A DNA stretch of 53,117 nucleotides from a virus (lineage: Duplodnaviria > Heunggongvirae > Uroviricota > Caudoviricetes). Every line of letters starts with the position of its first letter. The first letter of the stretch is position 1. Made by a program: the position numbers. The DNA lies in IMG/VR virus record IMGVR_UViG_2718218452_000009. One strand, written 5' to 3'. Below, in pieces: positions 42,001 to 45,000 of this stretch.

Positions 42001-45000
42001 AAAATATCAAACTCAACCTTCGCCTTCCATCACGGCTGAATGAAGACCTTCGCCGCCTGGCGGAAATGGACTGTATATCTCTGAACTCTGCAATTGTTCG
42101 TTTGCTGGCAAAAGGTGTTAGGGAAGAGGTGGCGAATGGTCGCTAAAAACAGCGAAGCCCCAATGGCTGCAACCATTGAGGCTTCTAAATTACCAGTTAA
42201 CCACGAGAAAACTGATATGACTAGTTTAGCAATTGCAGATCGCACAATCAATGTTCCATTCCACGGAACAAATCTCTTTTTGGTTGGAATTAACAATGAG
42301 CCTTATGTTCCTATGAAGCCTGTTGTTGAAGGTATGGGGATGGTTTGGGCTGCTCAATTTGTTAAGTTAAAACAGAGGTTTGCCAAAGGTATTTCGGAAA
42401 TCGAAATACCTTCTGCTGGCGGTAAACAGTTAATGACATGTCTTGCCTTTCGTAAATTTGCGGCTTGGCTTTCAAGTATTCAACCAAACAAAGTCCGCCC
42501 TGAAATCCGCGAGAAGGTAATCCAGTATCAGGAAGAGTGTGACGATGTGCTCTACGAGTACTGGACTAAAGGCCATGTGGTTAACCCGCGCAAAGCTAAA
42601 AAGGCATTGCTGGGGAAAATCACCACTGAACAGCAGGAAGCCATTAAACAACTCGTCATGAGTCGCGGTCAGTCTCTGCCAAAAGAAAAACAGGCGAAGG
42701 CGATGATTACCATGTGGTCGTCACTGAAATCTCATTTTGGGTGTTCATACAAAGAAATCAGCGAGGAGCAGTTTACCGAAGCTCTGTCACTTGCTGCTCG
42801 CGTTCCGCTTGAAGGAGAGTTAATCGGCAAACAAGAGAAGAGCACCAATGAGTTTTCAGCGAAAGAAGCAAACAGCCTTGTATGGCTATGGGATTATGCC
42901 AACCGCTCACAGGCATTATTCCGCGAACTGTATCCGGCGCTAAAGCAAATTCAATCAAACTATTCTGGCAGGTGCTACGACTACGGCCATGAGTTCTCGT
43001 ATGTTATCGGAATGGCGAGAGACGTTTTAATCAATCACACGCGAGATATTGATATTAATGAGCCAGACGGACCAACGAATCTTTCTGCATGGGTAAGACT
43101 TAAGAACAAAGAATTACCTCCTTCACTGCATCACTACTAACAGATTGCCAACGAAATGACCCAGCTTCGGCTGGGTTTTTTATCAGGAGTTCTCATGCTC
43201 TATAGCAATATATTGGCGCACGCCCGGCGATGTGCGCCAGCGGAGTCGTGCGGCTTCGTGGTGAGAACGCCGGAGGGGGAAAGATATTTTCCCTGCGTGA
43301 ATATCTCCGCAGAGCCGGAGGCGTATTTTCGTATTGCACCGGAAGACTGGCTGCAGGCAGAGATGCAGGGGGGGATTGTGGCGCTGGTCCACAGTCATCC
43401 CTGTGGTCTGCCCTGGCTGAGCGAGGCAGACCGGCGTCTGCAGATAAAAAGCGCACTGTCCTGGTGGCTGGTCTGCCGGGGAGACATTCATAAATTCCGC
43501 TGTGTTCCACACCTGACCGGGCGGCGTTTTGAGCACGGGGTGACGGACTGTTACACGCTGTTCCGGGATGCATACCATCTGGCGGGGATTGAGATGCCGG
43601 ATTTTCACCGCGAGGATGAGTGGTGGCGAAACGGTCAGAACCTGTACCTGGACAATATGGAGGCAACGGGCTTTTACCGGGTGCCCCTGTCCTCTGCACA
43701 GGCGGGCGATATTCTGCTGTGCTGTTTTGGTTCATCGGTGCCGAATCATGCCGCCATTTACTGCGGCGACGGTGAGCTGCTGCACCATATTCCTGAACAA
43801 CTGAGTAAACGAGAGAGGTATACCGACAAATGGCAGCGACGCACACACTCCCTCTGGCGTCACCGGGAATGGCACGCATCTGCCTTTACGGGGATTTGCA
43901 ACGATTTGGCCGCCGCATCGACCTTCGTGTGAAAACGGGGGCTGAAGCCATCCGCGCACTGGCCACGCAGCTTCCGGCGTTTCGCCAGAAACTGAATGAG
44001 GGCTGGTATCAGGTGCGCATTTCCGGGCGTGATGCAGGCGAAAACGAATTATCTGCCCGTCTTAATGAGCCGCTGGCAAATGGTGCCGTGATCCACATCG
44101 TACCGCGTCTGGCGGGTGCCAAAAGTGGCGGTATTTTTCAGGCAGTGCTGGGTGCGGCGCTAATTGCTACGGCAATCTGGATGCCGGGGCTTAGTATTGT
44201 TGCAAGTAATCTCATGTTCTCTCTTGGGGCAGGTATGGTTTTAGGCGGTGTTGCGCAGATGCTGGCACCGAAAGCCAAAACGCCTAAAGTGTCAGCCACT
44301 GATAACGGTAAGCAAAATACCTATTTTTCCTCATTGGATAACATGGTTGCCCAGGGCAATGTCCTGCCTGTTCTGTACGGTGAAATGCGCGTGGGGTCAC
44401 GTGTGGCATCTCAGGAGATCAGCACGGCAGATGAAGGGGATGGTGGTCAGGTTGTGGTAATTGGGCGGTAATATTATTTACTCATGTTCTAACTGATTTA
44501 ATATTTATATCGAACACTGATAATTATTCTGTTGGTTAGCTATATGAACAAAACGATTTTATTCTGCACGATTATTGCCTTAACAGGATGTAAATCTTTG
44601 GATTACGTAAAATCCGGCAAGCCTGTAATGGAAGGTAATTCATTAAAAAATATTGATGAATTGTCAGGCTGCATATCCAGACAATGGGCTGGTAATGGAA
44701 CACCTATAACATCCATTCCTATTGAGAATGGGGTAAGCCTTTTAGTTCCACAGGCTATGGGTGGGTATGATGTTGTGCTTGATATCAAAAAAGCAGGAAA
44801 TGGCAGTAGTTTTACTCTTTATGAACGCGTACCAGCATTAACGCCAAAAATTTTTGCTGATAGTGTTAATGCATGTAAATAATAGTTAATCCTGCCGTAA
44901 CTCATGAGCCGCCTTTTGGGCGGCTTTGTTGTTTATGGAGTGTGAGGAATGGGTAAAGGTAGCAGTAAGGGGCATACCCCGCGCGAAGCGAAGGACAACC

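What the first reader, a model, noticed from the sequence alone, without database searches (positions are those of the whole stretch)
44544..44882. AT-rich lipoprotein gene inserted between tail genes I and J
A 112-aa ORF with a signal peptide and lipobox (MNKTILFCTIIALTGC) has clearly lower GC than the flanking I and J genes and is followed by AT-rich spacer. Small lipoproteins at this position in lambdoid phages (for example Cor-type exclusion proteins) can block incoming phages by inactivating an outer-membrane receptor; alternatively it could be a host-interaction factor.
Basis: partly seen in the sequence, partly recalled or inferred. Interest (0 to 1): 0.55.

Follow-up and report, generated by a model that had tools for sequence, protein, structure and literature searches.

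The report
Uncharacterised lipoprotein gene in phage tail module
A lambda-like prophage of E. coli carries an extra, foreign-looking gene between tail genes I and J; it encodes a small exported lipoprotein of a family with no known function. The family is seen repeatedly in phage tail gene clusters, and the evidence argues against it being a Cor-type blocker of the phage's own receptor.

Summary
Window 44544..44882 (+) is a real 112-aa gene with a lipoprotein signal peptide (LTG|C16, Lys at +2), 37% GC against 55-57% in genes I and J. It lies in a ~430-bp insert placed directly after the stop codon of I. One detail is wrong: the AT-rich spacer precedes the gene, and the hairpin after it is native to the lambda I-J spacer.

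The protein belongs to PHROG 914 (function unknown; includes phiKO2 gp19, annotated "putative moron"). It has no Pfam, PDB-sequence or PADLOC match and is unrelated to Cor, T5 Llp, Bor or the mEp exclusion lipoproteins. The AlphaFold2 model is confident and shows a small alpha/beta domain. Three cysteines are invariant across the family.

Relatives sit in siphovirus tail modules at the K-I, I-J and T-tape-measure junctions, and also in a conserved non-phage chromosomal locus in Dyella.

The Cor-type reading is weakened. The same protein sits beside at least four different J receptor-binding ends. About 50 phages with this window's receptor-binding end lack the gene. Three phages carry both a family member and a true Cor.

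Best guess, unproven: an envelope protection factor that does not depend on the phage's own receptor. This is an ordinary finding of modest interest.

The parts
44472..44903 (+). Inserted segment relative to phage lambda (about 430 bp). It starts right after the TAA stop of gene I and ends just before the conserved I-J hairpin.
   Evidence: The pairwise alignment with the lambda I-J junction shows homology up to the I stop and again from the hairpin onward, with nothing in between. In PhiR55_1 the I-J gap is 60 nt.
44472..44543 (+). AT-rich 72-nt leader (23.6% GC) in front of the ORF. It has no consensus-like sigma-70 promoter on the + strand and only a weak Shine-Dalgarno sequence.
   Evidence: Composition. 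The promoter scan found no + strand site with at least 9 of 12 matches. Sequence read.
44544..44882 (+). Lipoprotein gene, 112 aa, a member of PHROG 914. Predicted mature domain order: strand, helix, four strands, helix.
   Evidence: ORF. phrog_914 match at E 5.7e-33 over the full length. AF2 mean pLDDT 84.2, with 68 residues at 90 or above. pN/pS about 0.17.
44544..44591 (+). Signal peptide (aa 1-15) and the lipid-attachment Cys16 (44589-44591). Lys at +2 predicts sorting to the outer membrane by the E. coli Lol rule.
   Evidence: Read directly from the sequence. Cys16 is invariant in the 31-sequence family alignment. The sorting prediction is an inference from the established +2 rule.
44670..44672 (+). 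Cys43 codon. It is invariant across the family and is a probable disulfide partner of Cys111.
   Evidence: Invariant column in A3. It lies in helix 37-50 of the model. The disulfide itself is an inference.
44874..44876 (+). Cys111 codon, invariant across the family, in the C-terminal helix.
   Evidence: Invariant column in A3. Helix 103-111 of the model.
44906..44936 (+). Terminator-like hairpin (GAGCCGCC-TTTT-GGGCGGCTT) followed by a T-rich tail. It is part of the ancestral lambda I-J spacer and was not brought in by the insert.
   Evidence: Terminator scan. The homologous hairpin in lambda is seen and in PhiR55_1.
43830..44471 (+). Context: tail assembly gene I (PF06805). The insert begins right after its stop codon.
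   Evidence: Pfam match. RefSeq annotation of the identical region in E. coli O55:H7 CB9615.
44949..48428 (+). Context: tail tip / host specificity gene J. It is about 97% identical to lambda J over aa 1-800 and about 40% identical over the C-terminal receptor-binding part.
   Evidence: Alignment with lambda J in 50-residue windows.

Best explanation
Shown: this is a horizontally acquired accessory gene, moron-like, inserted exactly after the stop codon of tail gene I in a lambda-type prophage. It is a real gene under purifying selection and carries a lipoprotein signal peptide.

Inferred from the sequence: the precursor is exported by Sec and lipidated at Cys16. Because residue +2 is Lys, it is sorted by Lol to the outer membrane. 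A roughly 95-residue alpha/beta domain, probably braced by a Cys43-Cys111 disulfide, then sits in the periplasm.

It belongs to the uncharacterised family PHROG 914 (phiKO2 gp19, Fraca VUF53278, Serratia phage OS31 p54). Members of this family habitually sit inside siphovirus tail-tip gene modules.

Most likely role (inference): a factor that acts at the cell envelope during phage-phage competition. It would either exclude superinfecting phages or protect progeny virions. It would do so at a step that does not depend on the carrier phage's own receptor-binding domain. One example would be interference in the periplasm with tail-tip or tape-measure channel formation. Known parallels are the inner-membrane protein HK97 gp15 and the Gram-positive lipoprotein Ltp.

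It is not a Cor/Llp-type partner of its own J protein. Because no promoter is evident, it is probably transcribed with the late tail operon.

Layered confidence: exported PHROG-914 lipoprotein accessory gene, about 0.9. Not tied to its own receptor-binding domain, about 0.75. An anti-phage envelope role of any kind, about 0.4. The receptor-independent periplasmic mechanism, about 0.2-0.25.
For: Gene and export signal:
- ORF, lipobox and low GC.
- Clean insertion relative to lambda.
- pN/pS about 0.17.
- phrog_914 match at E 5.7e-33; phiKO2 gp19, Fraca and the Enterobacter relative hit the same PHROG.
- Confident AF2 model.
- Three family-invariant cysteines.

Residence in tail modules:
- I-J junction in all E. 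coli loci examined.
- K-I junction in all 12 loci of the Serratia/Hafnia-type subfamily, in phiKO2, and in Fraca, L062, L070, L071 and L083.
- Between tail chaperone T and the tape measure gene in Enterobacter HK97-like prophages. This is the slot of the HK97 gene-15 moron, whose product excludes phages without blocking receptors, in a manner that depends on the tail region (PMC3594210).

Independence from the receptor-binding domain (RBD):
- Four J C-terminal types sit next to a 98-100% identical lipoprotein.
- About 50 phage records carry this window's J C-terminal type. The gene is absent from the whole phage collection at the DNA level, and at the protein level only ~30% relatives turn up in Fraca and LMessi.
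- Among 12 K-I loci, lipoprotein identity correlates with K (rho 0.60) and mid-J (rho 0.53) but not with the J C-terminus (rho -0.12). One pair has 89% identical lipoproteins and unrelated J C-termini (17%).
- It co-exists with a true Cor in Fraca, L070 and L062.

Fast divergence relative to the backbone: between L070 and Fraca, K is 86% identical while the lipoprotein is 23% identical. This fits a protein engaged in conflict.

Precedents: experimentally shown exclusion lipoproteins are encoded in tail regions of E. coli phages (PMC11893012).
Against: - No functional data exist for any family member. Nothing was found under the RefSeq accession, the locus tag or the PHROG number, nor under XCC2962.
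- A branch of the family is a syntenic chromosomal gene with no phage context in Dyella and relatives, in the order PpnN - lipoprotein - GspH-domain gene - UvrB. This suggests a cellular envelope function that need not concern phages.
- No sigma-70-like promoter was found upstream, so expression from the repressed prophage is unproven.
- Roughly 10 genomes hold more than one copy (348 places in 336 genomes, one genome with 3). My rough estimate is that this is what independent acquisition would give, so there is no sign that one copy hinders acquiring another.
- The correlation analysis uses non-independent pairs from about 6 lineages.
Confidence: 0.4

Rival explanations
1. Cor/Llp-type superinfection exclusion. 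The lipoprotein binds the periplasmic side of the outer-membrane protein used as receptor by this phage's own J protein and inactivates it. It was also suggested, without tests, for Serratia phage OS31 p54, which is a family member.
For: It is an outer-membrane-type lipoprotein encoded in the tail module beside J. Known exclusion lipoproteins (Cor, Llp, mEp Lpp021 and Lpp010) are also encoded near receptor-binding genes. A published suggestion exists for OS31 p54 (PMC7556043).
Against: - It is not homologous to Cor (phrog_1119), Llp, or Lpp021/Lpp010.
- It sits at the 5' end of J, about 3.4 kb from the receptor-binding end. Cor and the mEp lipoproteins lie just downstream of J.
- It is decoupled from the J C-terminus in both directions.
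- It co-exists with a real Cor in three phages.
Confidence: 0.15
2. Lysogenic-conversion or host-fitness factor unrelated to phages. It would be an envelope lipoprotein that changes serum resistance, adhesion, stress tolerance or envelope homeostasis, in the manner of lambda Bor or Lom.
For: Chromosomal, syntenic, non-phage homologues exist in Dyella and relatives. phiKO2 gp19 is annotated as similar to Xanthomonas XCC2962. The gene lies in the same accessory-rich region as lom. Its composition is AT-rich and foreign.
Against: No promoter-like site lies upstream. In the K-I loci the gene lies only about 36-40 nt after K, inside the late operon, so expression in lysogens is doubtful. There is no similarity to Bor (PF06291) or any Pfam family. 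Persistent residence in tail-tip modules across several genera would be unexplained.
Confidence: 0.2
3. Helper of tail assembly, virion release or lysis, needed by the phage itself. It would be a conserved morphogenetic or lysis accessory and not a moron.
For: Its K-I position is conserved in all 12 loci of one subfamily and in phiKO2 and Fraca. Its divergence broadly tracks the tail backbone.
Against: An exported lipoprotein cannot join cytoplasmic tail assembly. It is absent from about 96% of lambda-type I-J junctions (348 of 8711 places) and from the viable phage PhiR55_1, whose J C-terminal 199 aa are 99.5% identical. The window has its own Rz/Rz1 spanin pair. Three of 61 copies carry an indel that disrupts the reading frame.
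Confidence: 0.05
4. A passenger gene without a current function, carried along by recombination in the tail operon.
For: Three of 61 copies carry a reading-frame-disrupting indel and one is truncated. It has a weak Shine-Dalgarno sequence and no clear promoter.
Against: pN/pS is about 0.17. Cysteines and the fold are conserved across 116 clusters at 50% identity. It is present in 336 of 5426 complete E. coli genomes at 95% identity or more.
Confidence: 0.05

Closest known systems
PHROG 914 / Klebsiella phage phiKO2 gp19 (annotated 'putative moron gene product; similar to Xanthomonas gene XCC2962'); Escherichia phage Fraca VUF53278; Serratia phage OS31 p54
   Same: Homologous over the full length: phrog_914 at E 5.7e-33, and 33% identity to the Fraca protein. 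It shares the lipobox, two further invariant cysteines, a size of about 111-113 aa, and a position inside a lambda/HK97-type tail-tip module.
   Different: Here the gene lies between I and J. In phiKO2, Fraca and most relatives it lies between K and I. In lambda-type modules K and I overlap, so the K-I slot is not open. No member has a tested function.
Cor (phi80, N15, T1, HK022; phrog_1119), an outer-membrane lipoprotein that inactivates FhuA
   Same: A small phage-encoded lipoprotein encoded in the tail region.
   Different: No sequence similarity beyond the signal peptide. Cor is about 77 aa and lies downstream of J. Cor goes with FhuA-using phages, whereas this gene is independent of the J C-terminus. 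Both occur together in Fraca, L070 and L062.
T5 Llp (PDB 8A60 chain B), a lipoprotein that blocks FhuA from the periplasmic side
   Same: An outer-membrane lipoprotein of a siphovirus.
mEpimmI Lpp021 and Lpp010 (PMC11893012), lipoproteins shown to exclude OmpA- and LamB-dependent phages respectively
   Same: E. coli temperate siphovirus lipoproteins encoded in the structural gene cluster, with demonstrated exclusion activity.
   Different: They are 72 and 82 aa, lie on the opposite strand just downstream of J, belong to different PHROGs (4281 and 12984), and show no homology. Their types match the receptor used.
HK97 gp15 moron (PMC3594210), an inner-membrane exclusion protein acting on DNA entry
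   Same: An accessory gene inside the tail operon. The Enterobacter homologue occupies the same slot, between the tail chaperone gene and the tape measure gene. gp15 has bacterial non-phage homologues, and its action depends on the incoming tail and not on the receptor. This matches the independence from the J C-terminus seen here.
   Different: gp15 is a YebO-like transmembrane protein of the inner membrane. It is not a lipoprotein and is not homologous. For the present gene, no promoter or terminator of its own was found.
Lambda Bor (PF06291), an outer-membrane lipoprotein linked to serum resistance
   Same: A small lambdoid prophage lipoprotein.
   Different: No Pfam match. Bor lies next to the lysis genes and is expressed in lysogens.

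Membership tests
PHROG 914 (phiKO2 gp19-like lipoproteins) | Full-length profile match | tested here: met
   phrog_914 at E 5.7e-33, protein residues 1-112 on profile positions 1-118 of 118. phiKO2 gp19, the Fraca protein and the Enterobacter relative hit the same PHROG.
PHROG 914 (phiKO2 gp19-like lipoproteins) | Lipobox cysteine plus two further conserved cysteines, in a protein of about 105-125 aa | tested here: met
   C16, C43 and C111 are invariant in 31 diverse members. Most of the 116 cluster representatives are 105-125 aa long.
PHROG 914 (phiKO2 gp19-like lipoproteins) | Location inside a siphovirus tail module | tested here: met
   I-J junction here and in all E. coli loci. K-I junction in 12 of 12 loci of one subfamily and in phiKO2. 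T-tape measure slot in Enterobacter prophages. Exceptions: a prophage end next to integrase and a chromosomal locus in Dyella and relatives.
Moron (sense of Juhala/Hendrix, as summarised in PMC3594210) | Extra DNA between two genes that are adjacent in related phages, with deviating GC content | tested here: met
   Clean ~430-bp insert relative to lambda and PhiR55_1. GC 36.9% against 55-57%.
Moron (sense of Juhala/Hendrix, as summarised in PMC3594210) | Own promoter | tested here: inconclusive
   No + strand sigma-70-like site with at least 9 of 12 matches. By eye there is only a weak GATAAT with a poor -35 element. No expression data are available.
Moron (sense of Juhala/Hendrix, as summarised in PMC3594210) | Own terminator | tested here: not met
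   The hairpin at 44906-44926 is homologous to the one already present in the lambda I-J spacer. Several K-I relatives are followed by hairpin plus T-run terminators.
Cor superinfection exclusion proteins (phrog_1119) | Sequence homology to Cor | tested here: not met
   BLASTP against Fraca Cor gives E 0.19, over the signal peptide only. PHROG assignments differ.
Cor superinfection exclusion proteins (phrog_1119) | Encoded next to the receptor-binding end of the tail genes and associated with the receptor type | tested here: not met
   It lies upstream of J. It is decoupled from the J C-terminal type. It co-occurs with Cor.
Cor superinfection exclusion proteins (phrog_1119) | Inactivates FhuA and blocks adsorption | not testable with these tools
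   Needs adsorption and plating assays.
T5 Llp family | Sequence or fold similarity to Llp | tested here: not met
Lambda Bor / Iss (PF06291) | Pfam match | tested here: not met
   No Pfam family at E up to 1 for this protein. No Bor match in any of the 31 members.
mEpimmI Lpp exclusion lipoproteins | Sequence homology to Lpp021 or Lpp010 | tested here: not met
   The family HMM matches only their signal peptides, at 5-8 bits. They fall in other PHROGs.
Known anti-phage defence systems (PADLOC-DB 2.0) | Match to any defence protein model | tested here: not met
   No family found.

The most novel reading that the evidence does not exclude
PHROG 914 would be a Gram-negative counterpart of Ltp and HK97 gp15. 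It would be an outer-membrane-anchored periplasmic protein that recognises a conserved part of incoming lambda/HK97-type tail tips (tape measure, J trunk, or the K/I/L products). It would stop channel formation or DNA passage after normal adsorption. Exclusion would then follow tail lineage and not receptor. That would explain three observations: the gene travels with the tail backbone, ignores the J receptor-binding end, and co-exists with Cor. The family would have been recruited from a housekeeping envelope lipoprotein of Xanthomonadales.
Probability: 0.2. Interest if true: 0.6.

Novelty: new member of a known kind. Interest (0 to 1): 0.33.

Why it matters
The gene is in about 6% of complete E. 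coli genomes, and its relatives sit in the tail modules of many enterobacterial siphoviruses. No member of the family has a known function. The usual guess, a Cor-like blocker of the phage's own receptor, does not fit the distribution found here.

If the protein excludes phages by tail type instead of by receptor, it would be a new envelope-level resistance determinant. That would matter for phage host-range prediction and for phage therapy. It would also be an easy system to test, because it is one small gene with simple plating assays.

If the protein instead serves the bacterium, it adds one more lysogenic-conversion lipoprotein. In either case the finding itself is a routine accessory gene.

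Tried and rejected
Searches that found nothing:
- Pfam, NCBIfam and PADLOC scans of the protein found nothing beyond signal-peptide noise.
- A profile search of PDB sequences matched signal peptides only.
- The viral structure library gave one uncharacterised Pseudomonas phage phiAH14a protein.
- Literature searches by accession, locus tag, PHROG number and XCC2962 found nothing.

Tools or records that were unavailable:
- The afdb50 fold library was not available.
- Two context look-ups had no record.
- The phiKO2 genome paper is not held, so its view is taken from the GenBank note only.

Ideas considered and rejected:
- Spanin or lysis role: the window has its own Rz/Rz1 pair, and the only other lipobox ORF is Rz1.
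- Periplasmic inhibitor of the NlpC/P60 domain of gpK, by analogy with T4 Spackle and with T6SS amidase-immunity pairs. I set this aside because, from my own knowledge of the literature, gpK is thought to act in the cytoplasm on the ubiquitin-like gpI during tail assembly. In addition, some family members are not next to K. It is not excluded.
- JGI's label 'YceK' on some relatives: no Pfam hit supports it.
- A fused-chain structure prediction with candidate partners was not attempted, because only window sequences may be submitted.
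Full report
**1. The observation**

Window 44544..44882 (+) is an ATG-to-TAA ORF of 112 codons. Its N-terminus, MNKTILFCTIIALTG|C, has a basic n-region, a hydrophobic core and a lipobox L-T-G-C. Cys16 is at 44589-44591 and Lys is at +2.

The ORF is 36.9% GC (GC3 26.5%). Gene I is 55.3% and gene J 56.9% (GC3 53% and 68%).

The AT-rich stretch (23.6% GC, 72 nt, 44472-44543) lies upstream. The 66-nt downstream spacer is 48.5% GC and carries a G+C-rich hairpin with a T-run at 44906-44926.

**2. It is a real gene**

- Among 57 full-length copies from E. coli-type viral contigs there are 13 alleles. Six polymorphic codons are non-synonymous and ten are synonymous only, so pN/pS is about 0.17. 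Three further copies carry an indel that disrupts the reading frame and one is truncated.
- A profile search of 1.84 billion cluster representatives finds 116 clusters at E of 0.001 or better. Most are lipoproteins of about 105-125 aa.
- In a 31-member alignment the lipobox Cys and two other cysteines (C43, C111) are invariant. P27, K35, W48 and G63 are nearly so.
- AlphaFold2 with a shallow alignment gives mean pLDDT 84.2. Residues 1-16 are disordered and most of the mature part is at 88-97. The order of elements is strand, helix, four strands, helix. C43 lies in the first long helix and C111 in the last, so a disulfide is plausible. That is an inference.

**3. Anatomy of the insertion**

I aligned the region with the lambda I-J junction. 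Homology runs up to the I stop codon and resumes at the hairpin. The lambda spacer already contains AAACCGCCTGCGGGCGGTTTTGTCATTTATGGAG. The foreign segment is therefore about 44472..44903. The terminator-like hairpin is ancestral and was not brought in by the insert.

Phage PhiR55_1 has a 60-nt I-J gap with the same hairpin. VT1-Sakai has an unrelated ~240-nt filling at the same junction.

No sigma-70-like promoter (at least 9 of 12 matches) is found on the + strand upstream, and the Shine-Dalgarno sequence is weak. The gene therefore meets the compositional and positional criteria of a moron. It has no terminator of its own and no demonstrable promoter. It would in any case be transcribed with the late tail operon (inference).

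**4. How common it is**

The 477-nt I-J spacer of the window occurs at 95% identity or more in 336 of 5,426 complete E. coli genomes (348 places). RefSeq annotates it as "hypothetical protein", for example WP_153274582.1 in O55:H7 CB9615.

The 5' end of lambda-type J occurs at 8,711 places in 4,336 genomes. About 4% of lambda-type I-J junctions therefore carry the gene.

It is absent at the DNA level from all 50,697 phage records. At the protein level only phages Fraca and LMessi match, at about 30% identity.

**5. What family it belongs to**

- There is no Pfam family for this protein or for any of 31 relatives beyond lipoprotein-signal noise.
- There is no meaningful NCBIfam hit, no PADLOC hit, and no PDB relative by sequence beyond signal peptides.
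- The only hit is PHROG 914, "unknown function", at E 5.7e-33 over the full length.
- Klebsiella phage phiKO2 gp19, the Fraca protein and an Enterobacter prophage relative fall in the same PHROG.
- The phiKO2 record annotates gp19 as [quoted passage not shown].
- Serratia phage OS31 p54, 44% identical to the Fraca protein, was suggested in print to be a Cor analogue, without tests (PMC7556043).

**6. Where relatives sit**

- In every E. coli locus the order is L-K-I-lipoprotein-J-Lom-Stf.
- In all 12 viral contigs of the Serratia/Hafnia-type subfamily the gene lies between K and I, only about 40 nt after K. The same holds for phiKO2, Fraca, L062, L070, L071 and a metagenomic phage (L083).
- In Enterobacter HK97-like prophages it lies between the tail chaperone T gene and the tape measure gene. 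This is the slot of the founding moron, HK97 gene 15. The product of that gene excludes phages without blocking receptors, in a way that depends on the tail region of the incoming phage. It also has non-phage bacterial homologues (PMC3594210).
- One relative lies at a prophage end next to integrase genes.
- A separate branch is a chromosomal gene with no phage context, in conserved synteny (PpnN - lipoprotein - GspH-domain gene - UvrB). It was seen in Dyella solisilvae, a second NCBI assembly whose organism I did not check, and two metagenomic contigs. This agrees with the phiKO2 note about Xanthomonas.
- In the phage loci the gene is 4-16 GC points below its flanks. In most of them it is followed by a hairpin plus T-run.

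**7. Test of the Cor-type idea**

Known exclusion lipoproteins lie next to the receptor-binding end of the tail genes and match the receptor used. These include Cor, T5 Llp, and the experimentally tested mEp021 Lpp021 (OmpA phages) and mEp010 Lpp010 (LamB phages) (PMC11893012). I tested both features.

- (a) Homology. There is none to Cor (BLASTP E 0.19 over the signal peptide; Cor is phrog_1119). There is none to Llp, Lpp021 or Lpp010.
- (b) Linkage within E. coli. Of the 40 J ORFs that could be extracted, 37 intact ones sit next to a 98-100% identical lipoprotein and fall into four C-terminal types. The window type has n=25. Two types, at 41% and 63% identity to it, have n=6 and n=4. An unrelated type has n=2. 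The other three J ORFs are truncated.
- (c) The reverse direction. The window's J C-terminal type occurs at 95% identity or more in about 50 phage records (VT1-Sakai, PhiR55_1, 2G7b and many Stx phages). The gene is absent from the phage collection at the DNA level, and a protein-level search finds only the ~30% relatives in Fraca and LMessi. PhiR55_1 has a 60-nt I-J gap.
- (d) Among 12 K-I loci, identity of the mature lipoprotein correlates with K (Spearman 0.60) and mid-J (0.53). It does not correlate with the last 180 residues of J (-0.12). One pair has 89% identical lipoproteins and unrelated J ends (17%). Another pair has K at 86% and the lipoprotein at only 23%. These pairs are not independent and represent about six lineages, so the statistics are indicative only.
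- (e) Fraca, L070 and L062 each encode both a PHROG-914 lipoprotein and a genuine Cor downstream of J.

Together these results argue against a blocker dedicated to the phage's own receptor. They do not exclude action on some other envelope target.

**8. Best explanation and its limits**

What is shown: an inserted, selected, exported-lipoprotein gene of an uncharacterised family that is resident in tail modules and independent of the J receptor-binding end.

What is inferred:
- Outer-membrane anchoring, from the +2 Lys rule.
- A periplasmic, disulfide-braced domain.
- Co-transcription with late genes.

What is guessed by analogy (HK97 gp15; from my own knowledge, Ltp of Streptococcus phage TP-J34): an envelope-level anti-phage role acting after receptor binding. 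The protein's fast divergence relative to its neighbours also fits this guess.

Against the guess: the chromosomal orthologues hint at a cellular function. Expression in lysogens is unproven. About 10 genomes hold two or three copies. My rough estimate is that this is what independent acquisition would give, from 4% per J locus and about two J loci per genome. There is thus no sign of self-exclusion.

I put an anti-phage role at about 0.4, a phage-unrelated fitness role at about 0.2, the strict Cor-type reading at about 0.15, and assembly or no function at about 0.05 each.

**9. Novelty and verdict**

The family has been catalogued (PHROG 914). It was flagged as a putative moron in the phiKO2 record and speculated to be Cor-like in 2020. 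The E. coli I-J copy is a new member of a known kind, namely phage accessory lipoproteins.

What this analysis adds:
- The exact insertion boundaries.
- The finding that the hairpin is ancestral.
- The lack of linkage to the receptor-binding domain.
- Co-occurrence with Cor.
- The conserved K-I residence.
- The chromosomal branch.

Interest is modest (0.33). It would rise if the receptor-independent exclusion reading were confirmed.

Noticed in passing
window 41546..43140: A second insert splits the tail operon between L and K. It holds an Arc-like repressor gene on the minus strand (41546..41905, PF03869), a small Arc/Mnt-like gene (41973..42146) and a P22-type antirepressor (42094..43140; P22_AR_N + P22_AR_C). 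This looks like a P22 immI-like cassette. It is present in only 3 of the related viral contigs (L008, L010, L013).
   Followed up: partly
L087 (VT1-Sakai) 1887..2128, compared with window 44472..44948: The I-J junction of VT1-Sakai holds an unrelated filling of about 240 nt instead of the lipoprotein gene. The junction therefore seems to be a variable site in lambda-type tail operons.
   Followed up: partly
window 47350..48428 (J aa ~800-1159): J is about 97% identical to lambda J up to residue ~800. It is then mosaic: 28-58% identity over residues 800-950, 92% over 951-1000, and about 10-54% over the C-terminal receptor-binding part. The receptor for this C-terminal type was not identified here.
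   Followed up: partly
L002 (Fraca) 6001..6336 and 11579..11812; L070 8001..8336 and 13330..13554; L062 8001..8309 and 14447..14662: Three phages carry both a PHROG-914 lipoprotein (between K and I) and a Cor homologue (downstream of J). They would thus have two different tail-module lipoproteins in one genome.
   Followed up: yes
L077, L082, L084, L085 (Dyella solisilvae, a second NCBI assembly, and two metagenomic contigs): Chromosomal relatives of the lipoprotein lie in a conserved non-phage locus. The order is TonB-dependent receptor genes, PpnN-like gene, lipoprotein, GspH-domain (pseudopilin-like) gene on the other strand, then uvrB.
   Followed up: partly
window 13774..17035: Two adjacent copies of an IS3-family element lie on the minus strand (HTH_Tnp_1 ORF plus rve integrase ORF). 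The copy at 15822..17035 looks complete. The copy at 13774..14801 has a shorter transposase ORF (233 against 295 aa). Both interrupt the early region of the prophage.
   Followed up: partly
window 18080..19852 (-): A 590-aa ORF with no Pfam or PADLOC match. It is a full-length match to phrog_9230 (unknown function).
   Followed up: partly
L059 3279..3616, L060 8001..8338, L061 8001..8341, L069 212..391: Copies of the lipoprotein gene with a 1-2-nt indel (three loci) or a truncation (L069) occur in some E. coli prophage contigs. The gene is thus occasionally lost by decay.
   Followed up: partly
window 25405..25854 and 25616..25801: An Rz/Rz1-type spanin pair: a lipobox ORF is embedded in the Rz frame. 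This is the only other lipoprotein candidate in the window. No cor or bor gene was seen.
   Followed up: partly
L049 (IMG/VR contig, 16.3 kb locus): Three lambda-type tail-tip modules (L-K-I-J) lie in tandem, and only the middle one carries the lipoprotein gene. This may be an assembly chimera or a tandem prophage array.
   Followed up: no
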